Of a stretch of DNA of 64,000 nucleotides, positions 1-20,060 are shown piece by piece. The stretch spans positions 186,001 through 250,000 of the forward strand of contig CAJINV010000010.1 of the NCBI GenBank assembly GCA_905178155.1, in the 5' to 3' direction. The notes under the pieces were generated by a model. The model searched no databases. It was not told where the DNA came from and worked only from the letters and a program-made list of their open reading frames with translations. How positions within the stretch are numbered: position 1 is the first letter of the stretch; the number at the start of each line of letters is the position of its first letter. Made by a program: the position numbers and the translations under genes. Source of the DNA: Amoebophrya sp. A120 (taxonomy: Eukaryota; Protista; Dinoflagellata).

Positions 1-929
1 AAAACCTACACGAACTTGTTCTACAAGAGTTCAAGTTCATCCTGATGTGCTGCTGGTGAAATCATCATCTTCTTCTTCAGTAGGACGAATGTCGATTCAT
101 CAATATAGAAAGTTGTCAGACAAACTACCAGGAGGTCGTCATGATCTCGGCTTCTACGGACGTCGGGGAGCAGACGAATAGGAATAGCACGACTCAGACG
201 AGCGAAGAAGATCGTAACGACATCGTGATCAATACGTCCATCACGAGGTGGAATTATTCGATGACCCACGACCAACATTTTCACGACGACCCAGCTGCTG
301 TGCGAGATGAACCCGTAAACGCACACCGAAATTGAGACGCCGATCAGATGCATGCCATTATCTTTTTTTCTTGGCGAGGCTATCGATTATCGTGATGGAA
401 ACTAGAGTAAACGTCGAACCGCGACACATCAACGACCCAACACCTACCACAAAGACGAAGACGAGAGGTCGAAGCGGAGCGATAGCAAGCACGTCGGTTT
501 TATTTTTGAACAGAAGTTCGAATGTTACTACAAGAAAAAAATGCGCGCCGGCTGGCATTGTGCCTGCTCATAGAGATCCAGCGTTTTTTCTTTTATTTTC
601 GTTGTGCATTGGATGTCGTAAAGGTTAAGGCTCCAGCGTGTTCAGTTTTAGTCGTTGTGCACTATAATGCATTGTGCTGTCGTTAGATTTACTTGCAACG
701 CAGCGGGGTGGAATCACCACTGATATTAGGTTCGTACATTGCATTTCCATTTATGTGGCTAGTCAAACAGGAAGACCTCGCAATTTTCGAAGCCGTTTTT
801 TCATATTGATGTCCTTTATTGAAAAATTTGTGCAAGCACCCGCCCACCGTCATCTAGTCTTATTGAAAAACCAGAAGCCCAGCCGCCTACCTTCTAGCCT
901 AAATCGGAAGGAGACATCACTGAGCCTAC

Positions 930-962
930 GTCCGCCACTGAGCAATGAGCTCAGTGGCGGAC
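930..962. repeat. Perfect 14-bp hairpin
   Basis: GTCCGCCACTGAGC-aatga-GCTCAGTGGCGGAC. Confidence 0.8.
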
Positions 963-1177
963 AGACACACACTCTATCAGGCGCAAAGTTCTATCGCCGA
1001 CTCCGACACAGACGGGCGCCTGACTTGGTCGCCAGGTCGGGCTCCACCGAGAAGGCCCACCTCCGACATCCAGGCTCCACCCTGAAGCCAAATCCCATCT
1101 ATAGATCAAGTGGGCAAGGAGATCTATCGGACGGCCACAGACCCACCTAGGCATCAGTGGTGAAGCCAGCACCAACC

Positions 1178-1197
1178 ACACACACACACACACACAC
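1178..1197. repeat. (CA)n microsatellite
   Basis: About 10 CA units. Confidence 0.9.
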
Positions 1198-1587
1198 CTG
1201 CCCACTTCCGCGAAGTGGTCCGCTTTCGGCAGGTGACAGTCAGTGTGAATCAGATCGCTTTATCGGCTTGATGTAGCTGCACCAAGTGGCACAAGCTGGA
1301 TCAAGCCAAATCATTAAAAATTGATTATATTGTAAGGCGGTTTCGAGTTAATTTTTCATCGTGATGTCCTTATTGAAAAATTTGTGCACCGCCCTGCCAA
1401 GCAACATGCCCAGATTCGGCAGCGCCCTGTAGGTGGCCTACTTCTGGGACACCAGAGGGGAAGGGCGCAACCAGAATGAACTCCGAGCTTTCGGGGAAGG
1501 GCGAAAAACCGCATTACAAATTGCTTTTTTCAGAAAAAAAAAATTTTCGATTTCCCTTTCGCCCAGGAGGGTCGGCCATACCGTCGG

Positions 1588-1722
1588 CGGAAGGATTTCG
1601 GAAGGATTTCGGAAGCATTTCGGAAGGATTCCGGAAGGATTCCGGAAGGATTTCCGGAAGCCTCGGGAAGGATTTTCGCGGGCATTCCGGAAGCCCTTCC
1701 GGCGGCCCCTTCGGAAGGATTT
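1588..1722. repeat. 11-bp minisatellite (CGGAAGGATTT)n
   Basis: About 8 tandem, partly degenerate units at 1588-1675, with further copies near 1712 and 2132-2164. Confidence 0.85.
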
Positions 1723-3499
1723 TCTGTTGGCCCTCTTCAGGGACAGCTGTCGGCTGGCGACGCACTCCGCGAGCCGCGGGGCCTTCCACAAGCAACCCAT
1801 TACGGCCCGGCGGCTGCATCGATCTTCGAAGGCCGCGGGCCGGCCCCCTCCGAGCGCGGCAGGCTTGCTGGGAAGCCTGCCTCGGCCTTTCGTTAAGTTC
1901 GTTCCGCTGTAGTGCACAACACAGGGGGCAAGGGGGCGCAACTCGCCCGATTTCCGGCGTTGGTTTAAGGTGGCAATGGGGCGCAAGCCCTACAGCGAGC
2001 GGCTGCGCGCCACGGCTCGGGCTACTGTCTACGCCACCCTGCCGCGGTGGGTTGCCTGTCCCAGGGCAGAAAAACAAATAGGCCGCCCGGCTGCACTCAG
2101 GGCTGGGGCGCCGCGAACTTTGCCGGGGTGCTGGAAGGATTTCGGAAGATTATTGGAAGCATTTCCCCCCGATTGTGTTAACAGGGGTGGCCGTTTGTAA
2201 TTTTTTCATCTTGATGTCCTTATTGAAAAATTTGCGCAGCCCCACATAGTCAAAAACGAAAGCAGTCAAAAATATAAGTGGCAGCAGCGCTGCTAGGTAG
2301 TCCTGGGGAAGACATGCGCGCCACCTGTTTGAAAGGGGCCCTGCGGCCTATCTTCAAACCGAAGCGGCTACACCGCCGGACGTAGTTGCTTCTGCTAGGT
2401 GGCGGCAGGCAGGGTTTTGGGCCTGCGCTCATGAAAGACTGGGCCCACCCCAGCATGGCCTGATCGCATTGCTATCATGCGGGCCGCTTTGTCAGCAAAC
2501 AAAACAACAAGCGCAGCCTGCGCTTGCTTTGTTGTCTCCACGAAGCCGCAAACCCCGGGCCGAAATGCCTTGGGATAGGAGCGCAAGCTCTAAACACCAC
2601 GGCCGCTACGGCGTCGGAGGGTATGTGCCCATGGAAAGCCCCCAAAGAGGGGCAATCTCGTGCGCCATTGCACCGGCCGACGCCGTCGGGGCTCGAGCGC
2701 CAACCACGCGAAGGGGGGCCGCTTGAAGGTAAATCACGAGTATGGTTTGGGCGTTTCTGTGTGCCCCATGTGGCTCGAGAAGGTGCATGGGCGAGAAGGT
2801 GCAGGGCGCAGAAATGTTGAAAAAAGGCGCCACAGCGCCGCGATTCGGTGAAAATGAATTCGTTTTCGGTTCCCCGACCTGTATCGGTGGCTTTCGTTCA
2901 TGGAGGGCCTCCATCCGGACCTCTATCTTGGGAACCATCGAGAGGCGGTATCCGCTACTTTTGAGTCGCTGAATCCTTCTCATAATTTTCGAAGCCGTTT
3001 TTTCATCTTGATGTCCTTTATTGAAAAATTTGTGCAACTTGATTTGCGCTCTGGTGCTGTTTTTCTCTTTACTGGACTGCTTTGGCGACGCCCCGGCAAA
3101 GCCATGAGAAAGCAGAAACTCCACAGGGGGAACCCAAGCGCCACCGACGAGCAAAACTGAAAGAGGGAGGGCAAACAAAGCCCGGGGGATGCTAGGTGGC
3201 CGGCCCAATGCCTGCGCGGCCACGGCGCAAGGCATTGGACAAAGCCAGGGCCCGGCGCGCGCACTGACGAAACGCCGCCGGGGGCCTAGTCTTTTGCTTT
3301 TAGCAATTTTTTAGCCTGATTTAAGCGGGAAAATCCGGCGGCAGGTGTCCGCCTGACCGAACGAGTTGAAAAATGCAATCTGTCAATAGATGCAGTATTA
3401 ATTTTCGATCGCAACAAAAGAAAGCGAGCAAAATCATTCGCCCGAGTACACAGCAAGAAAGCTAGCACACCTCTACAGCGTTCGCGAATCTAATCAGCA

Positions 3500-6400
3500 T
3501 TGAGGAAGGTGCGCGAGGCGAACGATGCGAATCGGAATGAAAAGGACGAGCAGCACCGAAATCATGAAACAGCTTTCAACTGTGTCGATGATGCAACTTG
3601 CGACAGTGGCGCAACAAGTCACATGTCGGGCCGACCAGAGATATTCGAATCTTGGGACGAAAGTAATCCAGTGCGAATAACTGTAGCAGACGGAAAAGAG
3701 TTGGACGGCCCTGGATATTTTGGCACATTTACTGAGAGAAAAACTGCGATACAGAAAAAAATTTGAAATTTTGACTCGCCGAGGCGAACAGTATTTGAGT
3801 GCGGTTGCCGCAACGACTTGCAGTCAAAGACATGCCGCAATGGGCGGCCAGAGCAGGTAAGTAGGTGGTCGAGGTGGCGACCGTTAGGCAGGGACTGGAA
3901 TCAAGTCCAGCGAATATATCTCATTTTTTTGATGCAAAGTGAGCACTTTTGGAAGACAGCTGAAGCGAAACACTTGGCCAGTTGGAAAACTGTGATACAG
4001 CAGATCGCGGTAGTGCTCGCACGAGTACACTGCGCTGCTGTATCACACTTTTACAAAACCACCATAGCACCGGCGTTAGCTTCCGCTTAGTGAAATTGTA
4101 AAAGTGTGATACAGCAGCTCGACCGAGGTACTCGCCGGAGTACTCGACGGAAAAACTCAGCGCCTTCGTTGGCGTCATGCAAAAAATACGATAACGCGTC
4201 GCAAATTCAATTTCATTCCCCATGGTGTGGTGGGTTTAGGTCTGCCCAATCTTGGTGGGCCGCTTTTCGTCGTTCGGAGCCTGCAACCAGCTGACGACTT
4301 TGCAATGTCGCTCTGTCGACCAAATGCAAAGTAGTTTAACCGTATCCGCAGCGTTGCTGCGAATCAAAATTTCAAATTTTTTCCTGTATCACAGTTTTTC
4401 TCTGAGTAACATTGAAACCAAACGCACTTGGTTGCAAACGTGCAATATTCCATCCATTCCCTCCACAGACCCTCCTCAATGTCGAACAACTTAAGAAAGA
4501 AGGACACAGGGTTGCTTTCGACGAAGGGGGCAACTACTTGCAAAGTAGGAAAACAGGAAAGAGAACTCTTCTTCGCAAAGGGATCGGAACCAAGCTGCCG
4601 GCCGTGGCGCTTGGGTTCAACGAAGATCCTGGTGAGCAAGGTTTGTTGTGCGAAGAGATCGAGACCGAGTCTACTACCACGATGGCAAAGGCTGAGAAAA
4701 TGCTTCTTGATCATCAGCGTGCTGGACATCGTAGTCTACCTGGAATAGTAGTCCGATGCCCTGCCTGCGATCTCGCGAAAAGCAAAGGCGCGCAACATGC
4801 AAAAGTAAAGGAAGAATGCTACAAAGTTGAGAAATTCAATGACCAGGCTGATTTTGACTTCACTGGACCTTGGGAACGAACCTGACTACTGGTCGGAAAG
4901 ATGGGCTTTGAATGCCATCGACCAAGCAACCAGCTGGCCTCGTTCTTTCATCTGCAAAAGCAAAGCAGAAGCAGGCGCGAGACTGCAGGCCTGGATAAAT
5001 GAAGAGGGACCACCGAAAAGAGTGAGATCCGACAACGCGAAAGAGTTCAAGGAACCAAATAGCACTTGGAAAAAGACAGCACAGAAACAGTCCCCGCCGA
5101 TTCATACTGACTCCTCAGCCCCATATGAGCCGCAAGAGAATGGGAAAGCTGAAAGATACAACCAAACTCACCAAAACGGAGTAAGAGCTATGACGGTCGG
5201 AGTTGATAAACGTGTGTGGAGTTATGCAGCTCGCACTTTCTCACACATATTCGCCCGAACCCCGACAGCCAAAGGAGGCGAGTCGCCATTTGAAAAACGC
5301 TTCAAAAGAAAACCCTCCGCCAAGTACTTCCGACGATTCGGATGCTTGGTCTACGCGAAGGATCACTCACAGAAGTCGAAGCTTGAAGACCGGTTTACCC
5401 GTGGAATCTTTCTGGGCTACGGTCAAGAGAATTCTACATACCTGGTAGGCATGTGGTCTGCAGATTGATGGTCGATGTAAGAAAAGCTCCAAAACCCGTT
5501 TCGGAGTTCACGAAGTGAAGTGCTGTAGTGTAAGTTTGATGAATCTGCGCTGGTCAGCAAAATAGATGATCTAAAGCCGGACGCTGACAAGCTGACGATT
5601 GATTTTCCGAATCCGGCGCGTCTGGGTGATAGTTCGCAGCTCGTAGAGCCCGCTGCAGATCGCGATCAAAGCAGTCGCGGTCAGGACGCTCCGAGGACCG
5701 ATCGCTCGAAAGATGAAGAAGATGCGGACAAACGCAATTCTGAAAATGAAAAGGATAACGTCGAAAATGACGAGGGCAAGAGTTTCGAAGGGGGTGAGCA
5801 ACCTGAGGAAGGGGGTAAGGAAAAGCAAAACCCTAATCAGGTTTGGCTCGATATGTTTTCAGATGAGGCGCCTGAGAACTCCCCGGAACAGAAAGCAAAA
5901 GCTGAAAATGGAAATCGGAAAAGAAAATCTAACACAGTTGATGCTGATGCTGCAGATAATGAGACACAAGAAGCACCTAGGATCCTCGTTGAAGGACCTA
6001 CACGAAAGAAACTTCGCAAGAAGGGCCGAGGCCAGGACAAAAAGAAGCGCAAAGAACGCAACGACAAAGGCAAGAGTCGTGGTCCTCGAGCTAAGAAAAG
6101 ACAAAAAGCCAACCTTGTGTCGTCATCTGACTTACTGAAAGATCTACCAATGGAATTTGAAAAAGAAGCAGAGGCTATATTCCAGATTCGTCATGAATTA
6201 GAGGAAGACGAAACTCCTTACCTCTTTGGCTTGCAGCACACTTGGGCCAAGTGTCTGGAAAGTCCTGACGCAATCAAATGGATCGAGTCAGATACAAGCG
6301 AACGCCTAGCGCTAGAAGAAGCGAAAACGTGGAGGCATGCAACCGCAGAAGACATCAAAGAGATGGGTGATAAGTTAGAAACTATCCCGACGGTTTGCAT

Positions 6401-7905
6401 CTACACGAAGAAAAGAGACGGTCGCTACAAGTGTCGTCTAGTAGCACTAGGAAACAGGCAAAAGCTATCTCTACAAGGAGAAATATACAGCCCAACTGTG
6501 AGCCATGCCGCAAGCAGGTACTTACTTGCTGAAGCAGCAGCACACGGATGGAAAATTAGACAGCTCGATACTTCCAATGCGTTTGCGCGTGCAGCTCTAG
6601 GTGACGAGATCGCGTTATGTCGCCTGCCCAAGCATAACGGCTGGAGCAAGAATAAAGAGAAAGGCGACGCTGTCAGGCTGTTAAAGTCGTTATACGGTCT
6701 GAAGATCAGCCCACACCGTTGGCACGTATGACGAATATGCTGGCAAACTCAAGAAGTTCGACTGGGTTGCATCCGAACACGAACCAGGTTTGTTCAAGAA
6801 GTTTGCAAAAGACAAACAGGGAAAAGAGCAGGAACTCTGGCTAGCAGTTTACATAGATGACAACATTATCACGGGCGAAGATGATGACCGTGTCGCTGCA
6901 GAAATGAGTGCAATTTTAGCAGAGTTCCCAGGAAAAGAAATTCTCGCAGAATATGACAAAGAAGGCAACGAGATCCGCGACCTTCTAGGCGCAAAGTTGA
7001 TCTTCAATGCGAAAAAGAGAGTCATGAAAATCACTTGCGAAGATGCAATTGATAAGCTGCTTGAGAAATTTCACATGAAGGACTGCCGTGCAGTAGGTTC
7101 CCCATGTTTACCAAATTCCCACGCAGACTTGGACTCGCCGTCGAGTTCCACACTTCCGATAAGATCGCTAGTTGGTGGAATGTTGTATATCAGTTGCGTT
7201 GCCCGGCCTGATATCGCATTCGCAGTACAGAAAATAGCGACGCAGGTAGCTAGTCCAACCGACCAAACGGCAAAAGATGCCAAGCATATTCTAGCGCATT
7301 TGAAAGGAACCAAATCGCAAGGATTAGAATACAGAAAGCAACAAGAAAAGAAGTTTAAAGAAATTTACACAAAAGCTGCAGAGCTAGAAAACAAAGAATA
7401 CAGAGACACCATTGCGCTCTGCGATGCAGATTTCGCTGGATGTTCTGCAAGTTTTCGATCCACGTCAGGCGCAATCTTATATCGACGCGGGGTTCCCATT
7501 TGTTGGAAGTCGAAACGTCAATCGATTCGAGCTACGTCAACAATGGAAGCCGAGTATTGCGCGACGTATGACTGCGTAAGGATGACTATGGATCAAGGAT
7601 ATTTGAATTGGTTTGCAGAACAGGAGTCAGGATCTCTCCCGTTGATCTTCAACGACAACAAGTCCGCGCTTGCGTTGAGTCCGACAACCGTAGCCACGAA
7701 AAGATCCAAGCACATGAGTCTTCGACTACACCTAGCACGGGACTACGTAAAAGACTTGCGTTATATCAGTACAGATATCAATCTAGCGGATGGATTGACG
7801 AAACCACTTCCAGGAGAGAAGTATACTCAAATCTTCAAAGCTCCTTCAAGAAAAGCTAATGAAGTATTTGCGAAAGCTCATTTTGTTGATTTCAATAATC
7901 TCTAG
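3500..7905 (+). pseudogene. Copia pol pseudogene
   Basis: Split over ORFs 3500-3766, 4412-4885, 4827-5468, 5853-6731 and 6790-7905 by frameshifts or stops near 4880, 5466, 5850 and 6730, plus a 679-bp insertion. Confidence 0.9.
3730..4408. mobile_element. 679-bp TIR element (MITE/introner-like) inserted in copia pol
   Basis: ~50-bp TIRs TACT(G/C)AGAGAAAAACTG(C/T)GATACAG...; TA...TA ends; perfect 5-bp TSD ACATT (3725-3729, 4409-4413). Removal joins GYFGT-LKPNALG in frame. Internal IR at ~4035-4118. Confidence 0.9.
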
Positions 7906-7975
7906 GATTTATTGAGGCGAATTTCACAAGAATTCATCACATCAAAGATTTCTCGAGATGGTTTCAGGTCCATTC

Positions 7976-8292
7976 GGAAGGGGGAGTGTAGGTATGATCA
8001 AGAAACACGACCTAAATCGATCTTGACACACCGTCCCGCTCTGAGTGCAAAATTGAAATCACGATGTAAATCAAGATGAACTGATGATGATTCAAAATGA
8101 GGTCTAACCGAAATCACGATGTAAATTTGATGGTGACGATCAACGATTGTTGATCTGATTTTAGCGTATACTATGGCGATTCGAGACTGATTTTGAAGTA
8201 CCCCAAAGCTTGAATGTTTACCCGCAGGCTGTGCGTTAGTACCATTCAGATTGATTGCAACTAGAAACGCCTTCAAACAGGGCCTATTTACA
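7976..8292 (+). repeat. Polypurine tract and putative 3' LTR
   Basis: Purine run at 7976-7986 followed by TGTA at 7987; candidate end TACA at 8292. The end is uncertain because no second LTR is available for comparison. Confidence 0.6.
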
Positions 8293-8358
8293 CTTCACTC
8301 AAAGATGACCAGTGTTCAAATCGCCCGCGTTTCTTGCGTTGTTGATTGTCTTCCGACA

Positions 8359-8746
8359 CATTTCCATTTATGTGGCTAGTCAAACAGGAAGACCTCGCAA
8401 TTTTCGAAGTCCTTTTTTCATCTTGATGTCCTTTATTGAAAAATTTGTGCAAAGTGTGCAAATGCTTTCGCGATTTTTGGGCCTCAAAAAAATGCATTCA
8501 AGGGGGGGGCATAAACTAGGGTTAAGGGCACACCCAGAGCAGAGATTATTTGGGCCTCCGAAAGGTCGAGATGATCACTCCCGGAGACCCAACGCCCCCG
8601 CTCCTCACACTAGTGAAAAGCACTAATTAAGCCGCGCCCCAGTACCTTGCTCCAACATCTTCTTAAGCCGTTTTTTCATCTTGATGTCCTTTATTGAAAA
8701 ATTTGTGCAACTTGATTTGCGCTCTGGTGCTGTTTTTCTCTTTACT
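8359..8746 (+). repeat. Second core-repeat array (two cores, one ~213-bp spacer)
   Basis: Upstream arm plus core at 8359-8451 and core plus downstream arm at 8665-8746; same arms as 742-3073. Confidence 0.85.
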
Positions 8747-9172
8747 ACGGAGTGGCATCTACCATGCGCGTTGATGCTAATGCCAAAAAAAAAAATGCGT
8801 CTGACTAAAATAACTGAATGCAACAATGAAGTTCCACGCGAAGATGAAGTAGGCTGAGACTGTGCGCAGCTTTGGTCTTTTGCAGTGAGTGTATATGACT
8901 AGGCTGGTGACCTCCAGCACGAGTTGTTTTTTCATGTTCGGCTCTCACTGGGAGATCAGGAGGAAAATTTGAATTTCTGCATAGCAATTTGCTACGATGT
9001 GAAGATGGTCGGAAACTCTGAAAGTTGCTCTGTACTCGCATTTTGTTGCAGCCCGGGTGGTCGTTTTCAGAGTCACAATTATGATTCAGCTGTGTCTTTC
9101 TTGCTCGTCTTCTTCAAATGTCGTTGGAGAAACCGTACGTGTGGATTGCAGGAGGTACTGGAGGTGTTTCTC

Positions 9173-10275
9173 TTATTTCTTCTTCCCCTCTTCGTCATCC
9201 ACCTCAGTGCAGGTGGAGCAGGTGGTGCTGTCGCTGCTTTTGACGGAGCATGTTCTTGGCGTGATGTCGTTATCTGCAGCCGAGCATAAGGTATTGTTTT
9301 TGTTCGTATTACTTTTTCCTTTTCCAATCTCGATCGTGTTTTCAATCTTTTCTCCCACCGCCGTTGACCTCGTTTTCCACACCAGGAACAAACACGTCAG
9401 CATTGGAATCCAGTACGAGTAGAGCGGATGCGGGTACCACGGAATTTCTGGGTCCGGGAGCCGCTGCTGGTTCCAACCAAGGAGCTGGTGTGTTTTATTT
9501 TTGTTTGGTGAGCGAGTAGATCACGCATGACAGAACAGGGGAAACACAGTGGCAATTTAGTATATTTCTGCAATTACATACAAGTAGAAACACACGACCT
9601 CCGAAGTAGTAACAAGCAGTACCGACGTCCACAGCGGAAACGATATATGCCACTGGATGTGCCACTGCGCGTATTTTTTCGGATTTGGTTCCACTCTTCG
9701 GTAATACCTCGACATCGCAAACGCGAAATACGCGTGCACCACTCCCATGATCCCGCAAAACCCGCTGAACAGGTCCAGAACTCGCTCGAACAACGCCACG
9801 TAGAGGTACAAGTAGCTCCCCAGCACCGCAAACACCGTGTCGACGAAGTGGCTCCAGTATCCTGTGCAAAAAGTATCGCACTCGTATAAATGCATTGCAA
9901 ATTTCCTCAGCATGAGAAATAAAATTTGTAATGCAGATTTGCGGTGGAAACAAGATTTGTAATGCTAAGCTTGCACTTGTACGAGTACGATACTTTTGCA
10001 CAGGATATCCAGCTCGGCCTTGCGAGCTCCAAATAGTCCGACCAGAAGGAGACCCAGGCCTGGAGGAACCAGTAGTACGGGGCGAGTTGGCAGAGGCCGA
10101 GGTGGTTCATGATGGGGAGTTTGCGGGCGATGAGCTCGGGATCGTTCCAGAAGAGGTAGATCAGCGCGTAGAACCAACAGGAAACGGCGTAGACGTAGTC
10201 CTTCTGGATCAGGGGGCGCCAGCTGGCCGGAACCCCGGACTTCTTCATGTCCTCCAGCGTCTGGAGGAAGGACAT
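9173..10275 (-). CDS. Multipass membrane protein, ~277 aa, 3 exons; HxxWH motif weakly suggests CREST-like superfamily
   Basis: Exons 10275-10009, 9853-9599 and 9484-9173 join in frame (PSW|SHF, TSE|LLG). Intron 1 is an introner, intron 2 (9485-9598) is GT-AG. Several hydrophobic segments. Confidence 0.75.
9858..10007. mobile_element. Introner family A (150 bp)
   Basis: TIR TATCCTGTGCAAAA(A)GTATCG; DR TCCAG on both sides. Confidence 0.9.
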
Positions 10276-10964
10276 TTTGACGAAGAAGTAGGTGTTGATG
10301 TGGCGCGGGTTGTTATGAGCTACGTACTTTCTGGTCGTGCAGCTGCTCCTGCTGTAACTTAGAGTCTCTATGATGATCTAACTACGGGGGTAGTTTTACG
10401 GAAGGTCCAAGAACGCAGCTGCTAATGGTGGCCAGGGCCACATCTACAGCTTAGAAGACTTACTTAGACTCTCTTGTTGGGCAAAAAACGTCACACATAG
10501 GTAAAAGGTCACGGAGTGCAAATGCGGAAACGGACACCGATACGTGATGCAGAATAAATGAGGTCCTGGAGGAACAGAAATATTTGTGCTGGGTGAGGCG
10601 GGATGAGGCAAAAAGACTGACAAAAAGTTTACTTCTCGCTGAGACTACCAGACGCTCGCTCGCGGTCGCAATATGAAGGTTTCCTCGCACGAAGTAAGCA
10701 GACAAAACAGATCATCATCAACATGAATGAAAGCCTATCTCTCTTCATGACTTCTTCGTCTGAGCTCCTTTCGCTGTTGATAGCAAGGCTGCTCCTGCTC
10801 GTGTCCTCGGCTATCTAATCAATAGCTGACGGCCCCGATCCCGAACTCTGACAAATGGATACAAAAATAAAATAGACTTTATCAGACACGACAGCATGCG
10901 CCAACTACACTTGATGAAGATAGACGAAGAGCAGACGTCGTCGGGCCCCCTTCTATCTTCGATA

Positions 10965-12030
10965 CGCGGCCGCATGCAGGGCGAGCAACTGAATGCGCCC
11001 GCTCGCACGCCCGCGGCGCGGCAAGGGTTGCAACGAGGCGGGGCGCCACCAAGGCGAACACACAACCAGGGCCGGCGGCCAAGGCAAACGACGCCGCGGC
11101 GCAGGCGCCAAGTCCGTAAGGAAGCGAACCCGCCCGGCCGCCGCCCGCGCGGCGCAAGGATGAAAGGCGGGCGCGCGCCACACACCCGCCTACCCCTACG
11201 GCCAAGCAACGGCGACGCACGTGGATGGGGGGGGCCCACGCTCGCAGCATGGCCCCAGGGCTTCTCGCTACTCGCGCGCCGCTGTCTCCAGGTAGGCCCT
11301 GAGAAAAAACAAAGCTGGAGGGCGCCCGCGCGGGCGCGCGTGCATGTTTGGGAAGGGGCCGCCCGGCACTCGTTTGCTTGCTTTTAATTTGCCGGCACCC
11401 GCGCCGCGGCCCGCCGCCTTGCCTTCCGGCTTGCGCGGGTTTCGCGCACCGTGGCCAGGTTCTGTAAATCACACACCGAGCACGGCGAAAGCCTGCGCCT
11501 GAAGCCCGGGCAGGGACAGGGCGCCGGGACGCTCGCCAAAGTTTCACCGCCACCCCGATGGCGGGCCGCCGGGCCACCACGGACAACCAGGCGCGCGGGC
11601 GCCCCGAAGAAAACGGCCGCCCTAGGCAACGGCGGGGAGCCATCCAATTCCGGGGGCCGGCTCGAAGCCTTTCCACCTTGCTGCGCCCGCTCCCTCCCGG
11701 CGCGGCGTTGGGCTTGCTACCTAGCAACAACCTCACCGGCCCGCCTTCGCGCGCGGGTCGCCGCCGGGGTCTCCTTTTCAAATCGTAGGCAGTTCAGGAC
11801 GCATTCGAATCCGTTCCGGGGAAAACTCCCGCGCGTCGATTTGCAAAGCCTCCGCGGGACTTGCTGCGTTGCTTCGCGCGATCCACAGCGGCCGCGATCT
11901 CGGCCGCGCGCGCGACTTTGCGCCCGCGTCCCTCACTACGGCGCGGGCGCGCATAATCGCGCGGCGGGCAGGCGCGGGCCGCCCAATTACAGTTAGCCGG
12001 TGGCGCTGTGGCCGCGGGTGCTGGGCCAGT
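10965..12030. other. GC-rich intergenic island
   Basis: Abrupt CGCG/GGCC-rich block with only low-complexity R/A/G/P ORFs; limits approximate. Confidence 0.7.
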
Positions 12031-12365
12031 GGGTGCGTAGTCCCCTGTAGATGTCAACGACGCCTCCTGCTGAAGCGGCTTGTAACAAATACTCCTGCAC
12101 TGCTGGACTCAGCCGAACACACTAGAGGAGGGCGTGATCGCGGGAAAGCCCTTCCCGGGTACGAGCTTGGACATCTTAGTAAGTACTTTTGTTCAGCTCT
12201 GTCAGTGTCGTCAGTAAAAATAGTGCGAAGTGGATATCGATATCGTCACAATTACGGACCACCTGTGAAGATATGAAACAAAGCTAAGTCATCAACTGAC
12301 ATCACGATCACCGTCGCATCATCTTCAAAAAAGCCATCCTCTCGTCTCCTCCTCGTCGTCCCATC

Positions 12366-14378
12366 TCACGCCGTCTCCTGTCCCACCTGCACTCGCGCTT
12401 CCATCATACTTCCCACCGCCCCGTACGGCCCTTTCCGCACATACAGCTCCAACATTTCCAATCCCTGTTCATCCAGCAATTGCCGGCACACTTCCGTCTT
12501 TTCCAACAAATTCTTCACAAACAAATGCTTCTCCACCCGCCCGTCGTGCGTCGTTTCCGAGCCGAAATCCAGCAGAATCTGCCTTATTTCGTCCGACTCA
12601 ATCAGCATCCTCGCGCAGCTGAAGTCACAGGCGAGGTTCGCGAGTAACTGGTACAAAAACGGCCTTAATTCCGCATTCAAACTCTGTTTCGTCAATAACT
12701 CCAACGCCGGCCGGATCACGTGGGGGGCGATTTTCAGATTCGCTTTGGACTCTTGGTTTTTCTCCGTACTGGTCGTCGCAATGATCCAGGCGACCAACCC
12801 TGCTTTGCAGATTTCCGGATTCGTGGATTTCGCTATCGCCCCCTTCGCGAACTCCACCCAGTTTGACTCCACTACCGCGTTCTTCTGGCTATGGAAGCGT
12901 CAGGATCGAAATCATCAAAGTTGAAATAGTTTGTGATGCATAAAACCGATACCAGTCGGAAGCCCACTTATGAAGCGGCGCATGACAAATTTTCAGAGCA
13001 CCGGAGTCCAATTTGTCGTGCTGTTTGGGCACAGAAGACCGCTTTTGTCGTGCTACTCTAGTAGCGCTATTCCAAACCCTAAACAGGCTCACAATCGGCA
13101 TCACTTGCCTTCCCGGCAAGACAGGCGCTTCATGCTTTGCATTTTATGCATGGCAAATCATTTCAACTCTGTCGATTTCAAACCTGACGCTTCCATATTG
13201 GCTGTTGGGGAAGTGCACCTGAAACACCGCGCCGAACATTTTTAACAAGTATCCTGTGCAAAAGTATCGTACTCGTACTAATTGCAATCATGCATGACAA
13301 ATCTTGTTTCTTAGCGAAATCAGCATTACAAATTCCATTTTTCCTTCTGGAAAAACTTGTATTGCGATTTATACTAGTACGATACTTTTGCAATGCATAA
13401 CAAGCAGAGCTTCGCGATTTCGTTCGTGTTCGGGGCGGCGAGGAATTCTTCCACGTACTTTAGAATCAACTGCTCGTACAAATCGTTGAAATAGTTCTCC
13501 GGCTCTTGTTGTAAAATGAAGCAGCAGAAGAGCACGCACATTGGCGCGATCTTCGGGTCTAAGGAGAGTTGCATATTATCTCCCTCGGTCAGTTCTTGTT
13601 TGATCAAATTCGGCAGGTTTTCCGTTAGTAATAATTTGCGTCCGTATCTGCTCGTCCCCAACTGCTCAAATAGCTGCACCGCATTCAGCTTCAACAAGAT
13701 ATCCTCTGTGAAATACGCTTGGACTAGAAGTTGAAATGCGGACTTCGGCACTTCTACGTCCGCGGAAATCAAGTCCGCGACGAGTTGTAGATACCGGAAT
13801 TTCTTCTCGTCATCCTCCGTTTGCGCGGACACGAGGAGGGAGAAGTCCTGCGAGTTGTGTTCTTCAGTATTGACTAGCTCCACTCGTTCTTTCACCCCAG
13901 TTTCGCAGAGCAATTTCGTCAATAAATTCGCCGTCTTCAAATCCTGCTTCAACATCCAGGCGAAGTTGTCGAATTTCAACAAATCGGCAGTGATGAGGTT
14001 GCTCCTCGCTTCGACAGCGGTGTCCCCATCTAACGACAGCAGTAATTCCAAAACCGGTTGAATCAGGTTTGCCTGCTCCTCAAATTTCTCCGCGGTGGCT
14101 CTGTTTCGCCCGGACGTTGATAGTGGTTTCCACAATTTCGTGACGAAGGTTGCGAATTTGTCCCAAAGCTGGCTGTACTGGAGCAGCCGTTTGAGAACTT
14201 GTAGTCGCTGGACGTCGGACAGGTGGTCTTTATTGTTGTTTTGGTTCTGTTGCGGCGTGGTGTCGGTGAGGTAGTTGAGAATGTGGGTGTTTTGGACCAA
14301 TTCCATCGCGTTTTCGACTGTGTCCGGCGACCGGAGGAAGTCCGCCAGGGTGGACTCGCGGGGAGAGAGGGCGGACAT
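12366..14378 (-). CDS. PSMD5: 26S proteasome assembly chaperone PSMD5/S5b (Hsm3)-like, ~514 aa, 3 exons
   Basis: Exons 14378-13400, 13244-13198 and 12884-12366 are in frame. Motifs FRYLQLV, DILLKLNAVQLF and LYVRKGPY resemble PSMD5 from memory; length fits. Confidence 0.75.
12890..13197. mobile_element. Introner family B (308 bp, orientation 1)
   Basis: TIR TATGGAAGCGTCAGG..GAAATC..CA.AGTTGAAAT; DR CTGGC/TTGGC. Confidence 0.9.
13250..13399. mobile_element. Introner family A (150 bp)
   Basis: TIR core TGCAAAAGTATCGTACT; DR ACAAG. Confidence 0.9.
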
Positions 14379-15194
14379 GGTCTTTGGTGATTGGGAGTCT
14401 TTTGCTTTGTGGTCTTGTTGGGAATTCTTGGGAAAATGAAAGTGGTATACTCAGAAGAACTTCTAGATATTAACGCCAAGAAGAGCTCTTGTTGTTGATG
14501 TTCAACCCATCGTCGAATCCATGTTCGTGTGTACTGTCCTCTCGAAGTTGTTCAGTTCCATATACTTGGATTAGCTAGTGGATATGTTGGTGAACCGCCA
14601 TCGTGAAATTCATTGTATCGATCCGGTCCATCGAGAAGTAGATCAAACATCAACAAGCCAAAGCTATTTCAGTTAAAATCGGATGTGGGAGGTATACATA
14701 GCCGAGGAGCTGCTGTTTGTTGTGATTTAGTGTTGGGGGCTCGAACATAAAGCGTTAATGTTGTTGATCGCAGGTACATTTCAAACTGTCTTCAGGCACA
14801 ATTTCGGCCGTGGGGCTAGGGGTAGTGACAAAGCAAATCTTCATATTAAGTGATCATATTAAGCACGGTCGAAATACAGGGAGGAACATCACAACTATGG
14901 CAAACTGCCGCAACTTGTTTCGGAAAGAACTGCGCGAGCAAGTCACTTTTTCCAGTTACACGACACAGCAAGCAGACTGCTTGCTTTCCATCTATGGCAG
15001 CTGGCGAGCAGTCGTCGGACCAGATCATGCCCCCAACCCGCCTTCGGAGACCTACAAGTACGCTGCGCCACCAGCCACAACAAACGGCCTGGCGCGCGAG
15101 GCCGCATGCACGCTGGCACAGCCAAGAACAATAAGACACCACACGCCACACCACTAATGGCAGATGGGCAGGGCGGGAGTCAGTCTGTCACAAA

Positions 15195-16010
15195 CACGGC
15201 CCGGCTGCGCTGGCGGGACGGGGAGCAAAACTGCACCAACACAGCCGCCGAAGCTAGCCAAGGCTGAGGCTGGCGGCCCACAGGCAGCCGCAGACCAGCG
15301 GGCGCGGACGCGGGGGGCGGAACCGAAGCGAAAACAACCGCCCCGCCCCCTCTCGGGGCGGCCGGGCCGGCGGGCCGCCCGAAGGCCCGCCCCCGGCCCT
15401 AGGAAGCCGGGGCGGGCGCGCGGGCTTCACACCATGCCGCCGGGGCTAGCAGGGGGGGCGGTAGCCGGCAGGGCGCGGGCCGCGTCTCCTCGAACTGATC
15501 GCGCGAATCAATTTGATTGCGCCGGGCCGGTGCGTGCCGGGTTTTTTGAAGGCTTCGCCAGGGCTTTGGCTCGCGTACGTGGCCGCCACTTCCGGCCGAC
15601 CTGCCTCCCCGCGCCAAAGAGGGCGGCCGCCCCGCTAGGCCCGGCGCCAGTGCCCGCGGCGCGCCGCCCTACCGATGGCCCCCGCGGCGCGCGCGAAGGC
15701 GCGGCGGGGGCAGGGCGGAGCACGTGCGCAATCGCTTCGGCGGCGCAGCGATCCAAACAAGGGCGGCCCGGCGGCCAAGAAACCGGCGAAGCCCGAGCCC
15801 CGCGCGAGCTCGGAACCTCACGAAACCCCCCGCCCCCGCCCGCCAGCCCTTGGGGAAGGCCTCCGCCCTCCCGAGTCACAAAGCCGGCCGCCTCCGCCTG
15901 CGCTTCGTTCGGTCGGCGGCCCTCCTCCGGCTGCCCGCCCCACCGGAGCCACTGCGCCAGGCCTCGCCACAAGCCTGCGGCGGCTGGAAGACCACGCGCC
16001 GGCGCTGTCT
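15195..16010. other. GC-rich intergenic island
   Basis: Composition shift; no credible protein. Confidence 0.7.
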
Positions 16011-16830
16011 TGGCATCGCCTACAGGTTTTCTGCTTCACATCTCACTGGAAGCCCGCCTGCGTCTCTTTGGTGTCCTCGAAAAAAAAGGAACACAACGAG
16101 AAGGACGGCGCGACGTTGTGCGCGTGCCTGTCGATCGGACGACGAGTCTCGGCGCTGCGGTTTTATTACCAGTGCGCTTCTACTAGCTCTAATGAATACC
16201 CATGTCGTCAACACTGGTGCACAGACAAGTCGCGGTTCTTCTTTTTCAACAACTCAATTCTTGTTTGTGTTTTTATTCTCAGTCAAACTTTCTGCATCTT
16301 GGACTGTCCTGTGGATTGGTAGAAGTATAAATTTCAGCGACTCCTGCGCCGGCGACGAGAGTAAAAACAAAAAAAACTCCCTGGCGAAAAAACAAAAAAG
16401 TAACTCATCCATCGGCCTCAAATACGCAGTCGAACTGCCGCCGGAGGTGCAGTGGAATAATTTGCAATTCGATAGCGCGTTCACGTTCTTCAACCGCATT
16501 GAGGAGAGCCGAAAAGTCGTTAAATTTCAAATGTGTCCGTACCGTTCTCGTATTGTAAGTAGGTGACGCACCACGCCGACGCATTCGCATCAATTGCTAT
16601 GTGGCAAATAGGGCTGTCGACTGGCGGTGGCGCTGATTCGGTCTACATAACTGCTTTACCGGATCAAAACAAGAGCGCACCTTCGCCGGCGAAGCGACAA
16701 ACTACAAAAAAGAAAAATTACAAAAACGTAGTTAAAGTACTTTGTATTTACTTGTACAGTACTTCTTGAAGAAAGACCTCCAGACATCAAGAGCAGTTAC
16801 TTCCCCATCCTAGTTCTTCGTCCTCTAGGT

Positions 16831-17404
16831 CTATTGCGCCCGACTCACAAATTTCATTTCCTCCGACCCCACCGCTACGTGGTCGCAATACTGACAAATC
16901 CCGTCTACAATCCACGGCAGCACCTCCCTCTGCCCGTTTTCCGGGTAGCTGATGCAGTTGGTGTTCTTGCACGACAAAATTTCAACAAAGTTCGACGCTG
17001 CTCCTTTCTCCGAATCTTCCGGGGTGGTTGCCGTAGTCGCCGTGATTTTGCTCGAAGACGTTGAAGAAGCTGCTGGGGGACCGCAAACCTGCAGTTTCTC
17101 CCCGTCAAAACCCGTTTTCAACACTTTCCTCAGCCCCTCCTCCTGGTCAAACCATCCGCCCAGCAACCCGAGCAAAATCGTCCGCACAAAATACCCGTTC
17201 CTCGATTGCGCGTCCCACCCGTTCTATGGATTGCAAAAATGTCTGGGTCTGGAGTCTTGTGATGCAAGAAAGGGAATAGTGAACTCACTATAATGCGCTG
17301 TCAAGCATGACAAGTTTTTTTCATGGTTCTGAGTTGCGTACTCCGCATCACAAGCTGCGTTTTTGCATGACAGGGAGGAGGAGCTCTTCGCGGCCATGCA
17401 GCAC
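16831..17404 (-). other. Duplicate last exon of the ATCase gene plus truncated family C introner at the contig end
   Basis: Matches the region starting at 26616; runs into the N gap. Confidence 0.85.
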
Positions 17405-17504: not shown

Positions 17505-18957
17505 CTTCGACTACACCTAGCACGGGACTACGTAAAAGACTTGCGTTATATCAGTACAGATATCAATCTAGCGGATGGATTGACGAAACCACTTCCAGGA
17601 GAGAAGTATACTCAAATCTTCAAAGCTCCTTCAAGAAAAGCTAATGAAGTATTTGCGAAAGCTCATTTTGTTGATTTCAATAATCTCTAGGATTTATTGA
17701 GGCGAATTTCACAAGAATTCATCACATCAAAGATTTCTCGAGATGGTTTCAGGTCCATTCGGAAGGGGGAGTGTAGGTATGATCAAGAAACACGACCTAA
17801 ATCGATCTTGACACACCGTCCCGCTCTGAGTGCAAAATTGAAATCACGATGTAAATCAAGATGAACTGATGATGATTCAAAATGAGGTCTAACCGAAATC
17901 ACGATGTAAATTTGATGGTGACGATCAACGATTGTTGATCTGATTTTAGCGTATACTATGGCGATTCGAGACTGATTTTGAAGTACCCCAAAGCTTGAAT
18001 GTTTACCCGCAGGCTGTGCGTTAGTACCATTCAGATTGATTGCAACTAGAAACGCCTTCAAACAGGGCCTATTTACACTTCACTCAAAGATGACCAGTGT
18101 TCAAATCGCCCGCGTTTCTTGCGTTGTTGATTGTCTTCCGACACATTTCCATTTATGTGGCTAGTCAAACAGGAAGACCTCGCAATTTTCGAAGTCCTTT
18201 TTTCATCTTGATGTCCTTTATTGAAAAATTTGTGCAAAGTGTGCAAATGCTTTCGCGATTTTTGGGCCTCAAAAAAATGCATTCAAGGGGGGGGCATAAA
18301 CTAGGGTTAAGGGCACACCCAGAGCAGAGATTATTTGGGCCTCCGAAAGGTCGAGATGATCACTCCCGGAGACCCAACGCCCCCGCTCCTCACACTAGTG
18401 AAAAGCACTAATTAAGCCGCGCCCCAGTACCTTGCTCCAACATCTTCTTAAGCCGTTTTTTCATCTTGATGTCCTTTATTGAAAAATTTGTGCAACTTGA
18501 TTTGCGCTCTGGTGCTGTTTTTCTCTTTACTACGGAGTGGCATCTACCATGCGCGTTGATGCTAATGCCAAAAAAAAAAATGCGTCTGACTAAAATAACT
18601 GAATGCAACAATGAAGTTCCACGCGAAGATGAAGTAGGCTGAGACTGTGCGCAGCTTTGGTCTTTTGCAGTGAGTGTATATGACTAGGCTGGTGACCTCC
18701 AGCACGAGTTGTTTTTTCATGTTCGGCTCTCACTGGGAGATCAGGAGGAAAATTTGAATTTCTGCATAGCAATTTGCTACGATGTGAAGATGGTCGGAAA
18801 CTCTGAAAGTTGCTCTGTACTCGCATTTTGTTGCAGCCCGGGTGGTCGTTTTCAGAGTCACAATTATGATTCAGCTGTGTCTTTCTTGCTCGTCTTCTTC
18901 AAATGTCGTTGGAGAAACCGTACGTGTGGATTGCAGGAGGTACTGGAGGTGTTTCTC

Positions 18958-20060
18958 TTATTTCTTCTTCCCCTCTTCGTCATCCACCTCAGTGCAGGTG
19001 GAGCAGGTGGTGCTGTCGCTGCTTTTGACGGAGCATGTTCTTGGCGTGATGTCGTTATCTGCAGCCGAGCATAAGGTATTGTTTTTGTTCGTATTACTTT
19101 TTCCTTTTCCAATCTCGATCGTGTTTTCAATCTTTTCTCCCACCGCCGTTGACCTCGTTTTCCACACCAGGAACAAACACGTCAGCATTGGAATCCAGTA
19201 CGAGTAGAGCGGATGCGGGTACCACGGAATTTCTGGGTCCGGGAGCCGCTGCTGGTTCCAACCAAGGAGCTGGTGTGTTTTATTTTTGTTTGGTGAGCGA
19301 GTAGATCACGCATGACAGAACAGGGGAAACACAGTGGCAATTTAGTATATTTCTGCAATTACATACAAGTAGAAACACACGACCTCCGAAGTAGTAACAA
19401 GCAGTACCGACGTCCACAGCGGAAACGATATATGCCACTGGATGTGCCACTGCGCGTATTTTTTCGGATTTGGTTCCACTCTTCGGTAATACCTCGACAT
19501 CGCAAACGCGAAATACGCGTGCACCACTCCCATGATCCCGCAAAACCCGCTGAACAGGTCCAGAACTCGCTCGAACAACGCCACGTAGAGGTACAAGTAG
19601 CTCCCCAGCACCGCAAACACCGTGTCGACGAAGTGGCTCCAGTATCCTGTGCAAAAAGTATCGCACTCGTATAAATGCATTGCAAATTTCCTCAGCATGA
19701 GAAATAAAATTTGTAATGCAGATTTGCGGTGGAAACAAGATTTGTAATGCTAAGCTTGCACTTGTACGAGTACGATACTTTTGCACAGGATATCCAGCTC
19801 GGCCTTGCGAGCTCCAAATAGTCCGACCAGAAGGAGACCCAGGCCTGGAGGAACCAGTAGTACGGGGCGAGTTGGCAGAGGCCGAGGTGGTTCATGATGG
19901 GGAGTTTGCGGGCGATGAGCTCGGGATCGTTCCAGAAGAGGTAGATCAGCGCGTAGAACCAACAGGAAACGGCGTAGACGTAGTCCTTCTGGATCAGGGG
20001 GCGCCAGCTGGCCGGAACCCCGGACTTCTTCATGTCCTCCAGCGTCTGGAGGAAGGACAT
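18958..20060 (-). CDS. Duplicate of the multipass membrane protein gene
   Basis: ORF translations identical to 9173-10275. Confidence 0.7.

What the first reader, a model, noticed from the sequence alone, without database searches (positions are those of the whole stretch)
742..8746. Cassette-like arrays: conserved ~40-bp core flanking unrelated spacers
Seen: the layout is X-Y[~515 bp]Y[~810 bp]Y[~745 bp]Y-Z at 742-3073 and X-Y[~213 bp]Y-Z at 8359-8746. All six cores share an orientation, similarity stops at ...AAAAATTTG(T/C)GCA before each spacer, and spacers look unrelated by eye. Inference: a ~130-bp X-Y-Z site repeatedly acquires DNA at one position while duplicating Y. Known analogies are the long TSDs of site-specific CRE/SLACS retrotransposons, att-core integration by tyrosine recombinases, and integron cassettes. 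No enzyme is encoded here.
Basis: partly seen in the sequence, partly recalled or inferred. Interest (0 to 1): 0.72.

Follow-up and report, generated by a model that had tools for sequence, protein, structure and literature searches.

The report
Repeated transposon capture at one breakpoint
In the tail of an ordinary gene of what is likely the marine parasite Amoebophrya, four unrelated DNA pieces (three cut from repeats found elsewhere in the genome) begin at the same position, each followed by a 40-60-base copy of the landing site, likely scars of error-prone repair at one recurring break rather than a CRISPR- or integron-like cassette system.

Summary
The layout is real: six same-strand cores end within 1 nt of each other, and the four spacers are mutually unrelated. 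X-Y-Z is not a mobile or ncRNA site. It lies in the 3' UTR of a spliced minus-strand gene, and only the window's own contexts appear in the laid runs. S2, S3 and S4 are pieces of multicopy repeats whose other copies run on past the left junction without Y. The junctions show 2-3 nt microhomology, a 7-nt recopied filler and a seventh, aborted core. The duplications vary from about 40 to 59 bp. A decayed Copia remnant lies between the arrays. Best reading (0.55): out-and-back template switching from one fixed DNA end captured repeat fragments and duplicated Y. A site-specific LINE priming on other RNAs is the main rival (0.2). No empty site was found. RNA contigs link the distal UTR to the second array, bypassing 7.6 kb: splicing, another allele or a mis-join. 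The scan noted long-duplication inserts elsewhere in this genome before (e1-10627074); what is added here is four inserts at one fixed endpoint.

The parts
590..741 (-). F: distal part of the 3' UTR of gene G; RNA contigs stop at about 590
   Evidence: contigs of 181 nt (X3) and 182 nt (X6) end here, while the DNA contig is 1997 nt long. AATAAA lies on the minus strand at 597. One study only, so a weak hint.
742..835 (+). X1-Y1: first copy of the target; fixed endpoint at 834/835
850..870 (+). Y*: aborted seventh core of the Y2/Y3 type
   Evidence: A 12-mer is found only at 859, 1369 and 2219; 0 of 3000 null windows score as well.
836..1351 (.). S1: insert with no second copy seen at 88% identity; holds a (CA)n tract
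   Evidence: Unbranched DNA contig 763-1436, depth 34.2.
1336..1388 (+). Y2: diverged core (one T missing)
1389..2200 (.). S2: GC-rich piece of a multicopy repeat; another copy runs on left of 1387; 2-nt microhomology
   Evidence: tables 2, 7, 8
2189..2238 (+). Y3: core sharing the T loss and an upstream TAA with Y2
   Evidence: 49 identities in 59 columns with Y2
2239..2983 (.). S3: piece of a multicopy repeat also present in RNA contigs; other copies run on left of 2236; 3-nt microhomology; right end may be a true TAT-type element end
   Evidence: a 2938-nt contig in X3; loose ends at 2236, 2952, 2984..
2984..3073 (+). Y4 (54-bp duplication of 782-835) and Z1
3074..3400 (.). Further repeat fragment joined to the end of Z1 (right limit approximate)
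   Evidence: DNA depth 87-172 over 3057-3300 against about 30 for single-copy DNA
3494..7986 (+). Broken, 5'-truncated Ty1/copia internal region, interrupted by a 680-bp inverted-repeat element at 3729-4409
   Evidence: Pol_BBD E 2e-6; SH3_retrovirus 4e-12 and RVT_2 2.8e-16; inverted repeat
7987..8360 (+). Lone 3' LTR (TG...CA, after a purine tract) abutting X2; no 5' partner in 1-7900; end at 8358 or 8360
   Evidence: other copies and loose ends
8359..8452 (+). X2-Y5: second copy of the target
8453..8664 (.). S4: piece of a multicopy repeat, preceded by a 7-nt filler that recopies the end of Y; present in RNA contigs
   Evidence: loose ends before 8460 and 8467; a 278-nt contig 8423-8700 in X3 and in X6
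8665..8746 (+). Y6 (46-bp duplication) and Z2
8747..10360 (-). Gene G: proximal 3' UTR and coding region (stop 9173-9175; GT-AG intron 9486-9623; introner 9858-10007; start not fixed); hydrophobic protein with no Pfam match in the three frames tested
   Evidence: RNA contigs skip the intron while the DNA contig runs through to 9500

Best explanation
Four unrelated inserts begin at the same position in a gene's 3' UTR and each is followed by a copy of the 40-60 bases before that position, likely because a DNA end that recurs there is repaired by copying a piece of some repeat and then rejoining the locus slightly upstream. Steps. (1) Shown: X-Y-Z is UTR sequence of gene G, and all four inserts start at the right end of Y. 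(2) Shown: S2, S3 and S4 start inside longer repeats, joined by 2-3 shared bases or a 7-nt recopy of Y's end. (3) Inferred: the + strand 3' end at ...TTTGTGCA(A) primes on a repeat through microhomology and copies 0.2-0.8 kb. (4) Inferred: the new strand returns 40-59 nt upstream, recopies Y and either finishes through Z or leaves again at the same end; Y* would be an aborted cycle. (5) Inferred: array 1 comes from several such cycles, in one complex repair or in successive ones; Y3 was probably copied from Y2. (6) Inferred: a related event duplicated all 131 bp of X-Y-Z around a Copia remnant. The nuclease or fork barrier that fixes the end, and the polymerase, are not identified.
For: Fixed right boundary with variable left boundary, 38-59 nt. 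Other copies of 3 of 4 spacers continue left of the junction without Y. Microhomology CA at 1387-1388 and GCA at 2236-2238; filler at 8453-8459. Partial core Y* 14 nt after Y1. No poly(T) or poly(A) at any of the 4 left junctions. Y depth in the DNA run (135-150 against 25-34 for single-copy DNA) fits a handful of copies, not a family (a rough guide only). Templated insertions with short microhomologies, several donors and repeat donors are described at yeast breaks (PMC11724301, passages). Different sequences inserted at one site with direct repeats are described in Daphnia (PMC4202315, passages).
Against: No cause is found for the fixed end; the target folds no better than shuffles. The duplications here are longer than those of short-microhomology repair, and this length is known from LINEs (126 bp for R9, longer for Dualen; PMC9977147, passages). 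The right ends of the Copia remnant and possibly of S3 are true element ends, which random template switching does not predict. S1 has no visible donor. Y2, Y3 and Y* share changes that Y1 and Y4-Y6 lack, which needs extra steps. No empty allele was seen, so the ancestral state is inferred.
Confidence: 0.55

Rival explanations
1. A site-specific non-LTR retrotransposon nicks the + strand at the end of Y, and its reverse transcriptase primes internally on other transposon RNAs in trans; a variable second nick 40-59 nt away gives the long duplication.
For: One fixed and one variable end is the geometry of target-primed reverse transcription (established knowledge). Internal priming on complementary bases gives tailless inserts (PMC5322556, passages). 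Very long duplications occur with R9 and Dualen (PMC9977147, passages). S3's family is present in RNA contigs. An unchecked note reports a site-specific LINE in this genome (e1-10627526).
Against: No LINE sequence at the site: 0 Pfam matches in the 19 stop-to-stop frames of 668-3489 that were scanned, 19 of the 24 listed there. The target has few copies, whereas the known site-specific families use multicopy RNA genes (recalled; listing). No tail at any junction. The recopied filler and Y* fit repeated slipping by any polymerase.
Confidence: 0.2
2. Half-finished transposition: a transposase or integrase joins one true element end upstream, and host repair captures the broken other end 40-130 nt away, duplicating the interval.
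For: The Copia LTR end abuts X2 exactly. S3's right end reads TATG on the minus strand like the window's TAT-ended elements, and two DNA contigs diverge there. This is the reading of the unchecked note e1-10627074.
Against: It does not explain why the repaired end falls on the same base four times. The right ends of S1, S2 and S4 do not read as TAT-type or LTR ends.
Confidence: 0.09
3. A dedicated acquisition locus (integron- or CRISPR-like) in which a recombinase or integrase adds pieces of mobile DNA at Y to make silencing RNA.
For: Repeat-spacer layout with one fixed boundary. Three spacers come from repeats. S4 is present in RNA contigs of the UTR.
Against: Repeat length varies, the repeats decay and lack dyad structure. 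Spacers are 212-812 nt. No such enzyme was seen in the frames scanned. Donors lack Y. Similar long duplications occur at unrelated sites in this genome according to an unchecked note. The three-spacer array seems to be bypassed by the main RNA path.
Confidence: 0.06
4. The arrangement is partly an assembly error: the true gene is F-X2-Y5-S4-Y6-Z-G, and the block 742-8358 lies elsewhere or is a mosaic of repeat copies.
For: RNA contigs link F to X2-type sequence. An X3 contig follows the window to 1485 and then differs. Several window letters in S2 and S3 are in no laid DNA contig. A probable assembly duplication lies next door.
Against: A DNA contig spans Y1-S1-Y2-S2 start without a difference (763-1436), and RNA contigs span Y5-S4-Y6 (8423-8700) and LTR-X2 start (7700-8388) without a difference. 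The Y-spacer junctions are therefore real whatever the long-range order. Contigs drop rare variants, which can explain the private letters.
Confidence: 0.06

Closest known systems
Templated insertions at DNA breaks (MMBIR, alternative end joining; yeast, PMC11724301, passages read)
   Same: Pieces of repeats or transposons copied into one break site; 0-4 nt microhomology; several donors in one event; local recopying at the junction.
   Different: Here every insert is followed by a 40-59 bp duplication of the target, and no engineered or known nuclease defines the site.
Parallel intron gains in Daphnia pulex (PMC4202315, passages read)
   Same: Unrelated sequences enter the same site independently, with direct repeats attributed to staggered breaks, and secondary insertions follow.
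   Different: There the repeats are described as short and the parallel inserts lie in separate alleles; here they are long and stacked in one allele, and S4 is not spliced out.
Long-TSD LINEs: R9 and Dualen (PMC9977147, passages); CRE/SLACS (recalled; search listing only)
   Same: Long duplication with one end set by a nick.
   Different: The inserts here are not LINE copies, have no tail, and the target is a low-copy 3' UTR, not rDNA or spliced-leader genes.
Tailless retropseudogenes (PMC5322556, passages read)
   Same: Inserts begin inside the donor at bases shared with the target.
   Different: Their duplications are 8-35 nt at dispersed A-rich sites; no repeated use of one site was seen in the passages read.
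Intron birth by segmental duplication (PMC3265369, abstract read)
   Same: The duplicated X holds an AG|GT on the transcribed strand that could serve as both donor and acceptor around the 7.6-kb block.
   Different: Splicing is inferred here from contig paths only; the block is mostly foreign DNA and lies in a UTR.
Integron cassettes and tyrosine-recombinase att cores (recalled)
   Same: Tandem units separated by a recurring core in one orientation.
   Different: Core length varies, there is no dyad structure, and donors do not carry the core.

Membership tests
Integron / att-core cassette array | Core of constant length with dyad or hairpin structure | tested here: not met
   38-59 nt; fold z from -1.05 to +0.05
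Integron / att-core cassette array | Each cassette is a whole unit that carries its own core | tested here: not met
   Other copies of S2, S3 and S4 continue without Y
Integron / att-core cassette array | Linked site-specific recombinase | tested here: not met
   No such Pfam match in the frames scanned (17, 22); not every frame of the window was scanned
Integron / att-core cassette array | Empty sites and excised circles | tested here: inconclusive
   No such joint, but contigs cannot phase across Y, and raw-read run X8 laid 0 reads
CRISPR-like array | Equal repeats and short, equal spacers | tested here: not met
   Spacers of 212-812 nt; variable repeats
CRISPR-like array | Spacers derived from mobile DNA | tested here: inconclusive
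   3 of 4 match multicopy repeats; the donors' identity as transposons was not shown by a protein match
CRISPR-like array | Processed guide RNAs | not testable with these tools
   No small-RNA run was listed
CRE/SLACS-type site-specific retrotransposon | Insert is a LINE or its 3' part with a tail or a defined 3' end at the nick | tested here: not met
   No RT or endonuclease match in the spacers; no tail; donors run on past the junction
CRE/SLACS-type site-specific retrotransposon | Target is a multicopy RNA gene | tested here: not met
   No Rfam or tRNA match at X-Y-Z; UTR context and two flanking contexts each for X and Z among the rows shown
CRE/SLACS-type site-specific retrotransposon | Long duplication with one fixed end | tested here: met
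Templated insertion at a DNA break | Donor-internal start with microhomology or locally templated filler | tested here: met
   3 of 4 junctions; S1 has a Y-derived patch instead
Templated insertion at a DNA break | Donor copy is retained elsewhere | tested here: met
   S2, S3 and S4 have other copies in the DNA run; S1 does not
Templated insertion at a DNA break | Dependence on repair enzymes; DNA rather than RNA template | not testable with these tools
Amoebophrya introner | Terminal inverted repeats and 3-5 nt direct repeat | tested here: not met
   None of the 42 TAT...ATA pairs found lies in 742-8746; S4 stays in RNA contigs
Replitron | Short direct terminal repeats on the element and insertion at RG | not tested
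   Features read in PMC10288648 (passages); donor ends were not available

The most novel reading that the evidence does not exclude
Y is a programmed capture site in a transcribed 3' UTR: a nicking enzyme or retrotransposon protein cuts at one base, pieces of active transposons are copied in one after another with regeneration of the site, and the captured pieces are transcribed as silencing templates, while overloaded arrays are spliced out through the duplicated AG|GT. That would be a eukaryotic analogue of spacer acquisition.
Probability: 0.06. Interest if true: 0.9.

Novelty: new variant of a known kind. Interest (0 to 1): 0.42.

Why it matters
If the repair reading holds, this is a natural record of a DNA end recurring at one base and being patched with pieces of repeats plus 40-60 bp duplications. 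It gives a defined 50-bp substrate for finding the nicking or stalling cause behind the long-duplication inserts of this genome. If the 7.6-kb block is really spliced through the duplicated AG|GT, long duplications would be a second route to new introns in a lineage known for intron invasion. No function is shown, so its weight is mechanistic and moderate.

Tried and rejected
The exact Y pattern found 0 loci in viral contigs and 0 in metagenome contigs; a 23-nt S3 pattern found 0 in metagenome contigs. The arrays matched no phage and no plasmid. Rfam: 0 matches at gathering score; 6 weak matches in 600-9000, none on X-Y-Z. tRNA: 0. No RNA holder was on record; X3 and X6 were taken as RNA only because they skip a GT-AG intron. 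'Y is a common transposon end' was rejected: the one mixed loose end at 8451 decodes as the starts of S2 and S3, and the depth fits few copies; 21 and 29 loose-end rows were not shown, so further contexts are not excluded. 'X-Y-Z is the Copia LTR' was rejected: the LTR ends where X2 begins. 'Spacers are spliced introns' was rejected for S4. Trans-splicing onto Y was rejected because the S2 donor has no AG at the junction. A resemblance of Y's end to an snRNA Sm site (recalled) and to an introner-internal motif was noted and not supported further. A scan for other 22-200 bp direct repeats in the window listed 24 pairs, 14 of them among the Y copies; none of the other 10 is a clear case of the same kind, and a 26-bp pair at 47124/47988 was not followed up. 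Earlier notes held nothing like S2 or S3 and nothing nearby. No protein search was run to fix the taxon.
Full report
Observation. The layout X-Y[S1]Y[S2]Y[S3]Y-Z at 742-3073 and X-Y[S4]Y-Z at 8359-8746 is in the sequence. The six cores score 65-78 against a best of 27 in the background part of the window. The spacers are 516, 812, 745 and 212 nt long; 0 of 10 pairs among them and block 3074-3500 beat shuffles. All cores end within 1 nt of the same position. Their left limits differ: Y4 repeats 54 nt, Y6 46 nt, Y2 and Y3 38-39 nt against Y1 but 59 columns (49 identities) against each other. Y2 and Y3 share a missing T and an upstream TAA. A seventh, partial core of that type starts 14 nt after Y1 (850-870; 0 of 3000 null windows). 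Two more cores at 18208 and 18466 lie in a 9,785-bp duplication across 100 N; the duplicated DNA has single-copy depth in run X1 (34.2), so this is probably an assembly overlap.

Organism. The window is eukaryotic and rich in elements with TAT...ATA inverted ends, several with 5-bp duplications. This matches the introners described for Amoebophrya (PMC7789003, passages). Earlier unchecked notes on this genome name Amoebophrya. I ran no protein search to confirm the taxon.

What X-Y-Z is. It has no Rfam or tRNA match and folds no better than shuffles. Contigs of runs X3 and X6 skip the GT-AG intron 9486-9623 on the minus strand, while X1 runs through to 9500, so X3 and X6 hold RNA and X1 holds DNA. 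The spliced gene G stops at 9173-9175. Its RNA contigs cover Z, Y6, S4 and Y5 (8423-8700, no differences), X2, and the flank F, where they stop at about 590 while the DNA contig goes on. X-Y-Z is therefore part of G's 3' UTR. Among the loose-end rows shown, X has two left contexts and Z two right contexts, all the window's own; 21 and 29 rows were not shown. Depth over Y in DNA is 135-150 against 25-34 for single-copy stretches and 678 at the LTR end; depth is only a rough guide.

What the spacers are. S2, S3 and S4 are covered at several times single-copy depth and by diverged copies. Those copies continue left of the junction with sequence that is not Y: before 1387 (S2, one X6 contig), before 2236 (S3, two X1 contigs and a 2938-nt X3 contig), before 8460 or 8467 (S4). 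The donor shares CA with Y2's end and GCA with Y3's end. At S4 a 7-nt filler recopies the end of Y. None of the 4 junctions has a poly(A) or poly(T) run. S1 lies on one unbranched contig and has no visible donor. At S3's right end two DNA contigs run to 2984 and then differ from each other (agreement 0.65), and the end reads TATG on the minus strand, so it may be a true element end. Of the 24 stop-to-stop frames listed before 3494, 19 were scanned and none matched Pfam. The donors could not be retrieved, so calling them transposons is an inference from copy number and from a GC-rich TAT...ATA element with an 8-bp duplication at 37893-39919.

Between the arrays. A repeat fragment (3074 to about 3400) is followed by a broken Copia region with a 680-bp inverted-repeat insert, a purine tract and one LTR (7987-8358/8360). 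The LTR ends where X2 begins and has no 5' partner. The whole 131-bp X-Y-Z is thus itself duplicated around a composite insert, with breakpoints other than the fixed one.

RNA path. In X6 the contig through X carries the X2 letters without a branch (8359-8442, depth 80.5), F feeds into it (89), and S1 is at 4.5. In X3 the figures are F 97.4, X2 99.5, X1 path 16.9 and LTR 34.6. The main transcript therefore seems to run G-Z-Y6-S4-Y5-X2-F and to lack 7,617 nt. Contigs cannot phase across the 51 identical bases of X, and contig depth is a poor measure of RNA level, so this is an inference. X holds one AG|GT on the minus strand, so the block could be spliced as in intron birth by duplication (PMC3265369, abstract). 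A DNA allele without the block or a mis-join are the alternatives; in X1 DNA, F, the X1 path and X2 all sit at 25-34.

Mechanism. One fixed end, one variable end, donor-internal starts, microhomology, a recopied filler and an aborted core fit a 3' end at the right edge of Y that primes on a repeat, copies it, and returns 40-59 nt upstream. If the template ended or stalled at that base, each return would run off at the same place, which would explain stacking in array 1. S4 sits in a separate copy of the target, so the same position was used at least twice or within one large event. Templated, multi-donor insertions at breaks are described in yeast (PMC11724301, passages), and parallel insertions at one site in Daphnia (PMC4202315, passages). 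I give this 0.55. A site-specific LINE enzyme priming internally on other RNAs gives the same geometry (PMC5322556; PMC9977147; passages) and gets 0.2. Half-finished transposition gets 0.09, a dedicated acquisition system 0.06, and an assembly problem 0.06. Against my reading: nothing explains the fixed end, two right ends look like true element ends, S1 has no donor, and the shared changes of Y2, Y3 and Y* need extra steps.

Known or new. The locus fails the tested features of integron, CRISPR-like, CRE/SLACS and introner membership, and meets those of templated insertion. An earlier unchecked note (e1-10627074) reports 0.7-1.8 kb inserts between 37-57 bp repeats elsewhere in this genome, so the long duplication is probably a genome-wide habit; I could not check its sites. 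What this locus adds is four inserts at one base. The result listings showed no report of this in Amoebophrya or other dinoflagellates; the library is incomplete, only the top rows were seen, and no supplements were read (those of PMC7789003 may bear on repeat classes). Verdict: real, a new variant of a known kind, interest 0.42.

Noticed in passing
window 7720-17404 and 17505-27188: A near-identical 9,785-bp tandem duplication across a 100-N gap; the laid part has single-copy DNA depth, so it is probably an assembly overlap.
   Followed up: partly
window 742-8358: RNA contigs seem to bypass 7,617 nt between the two X copies; X holds an AG|GT on the transcribed strand.
   Followed up: partly
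window 3729-4409: A 680-bp element with 51-bp inverted ends and internal hairpins sits in the Copia pol region.
   Followed up: no
window 37893-39919: A GC-rich 2,027-bp element with TAT...ATA inverted ends and an 8-bp duplication, hAT-like by duplication length (recalled).
   Followed up: no
window 9858-10007, 27315-27622, 59927-60188, 60377-60638, 60675-60988, 63120-63398: Introner-type elements with TAT...ATA ends and 5-bp duplications.
   Followed up: partly
window 1485-1657: An X3 contig follows the window to 1485, then has 186 other letters in place of 103; this part of S2 may be mis-assembled or the contig chimeric.
   Followed up: no
window 47124-47149 and 47988-48013: A 26-bp direct repeat (88%) around 838 bp with no other copies in the window; possibly another long-duplication insert.
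   Followed up: no
window 53009-54712: An open frame for a pentatricopeptide-repeat protein of 567 aa.
   Followed up: no
window 10880-12200 and 14960-16200: Two GC-rich non-coding inserts between genes with similar-looking starts; ends not defined.
   Followed up: no
window 820, 8437, 8695, 597 (minus strand): Y carries AATAAA on the transcribed strand (lost in Y2 and Y3), and another lies near the RNA end at 590; whether this organism uses it is untested.
   Followed up: no
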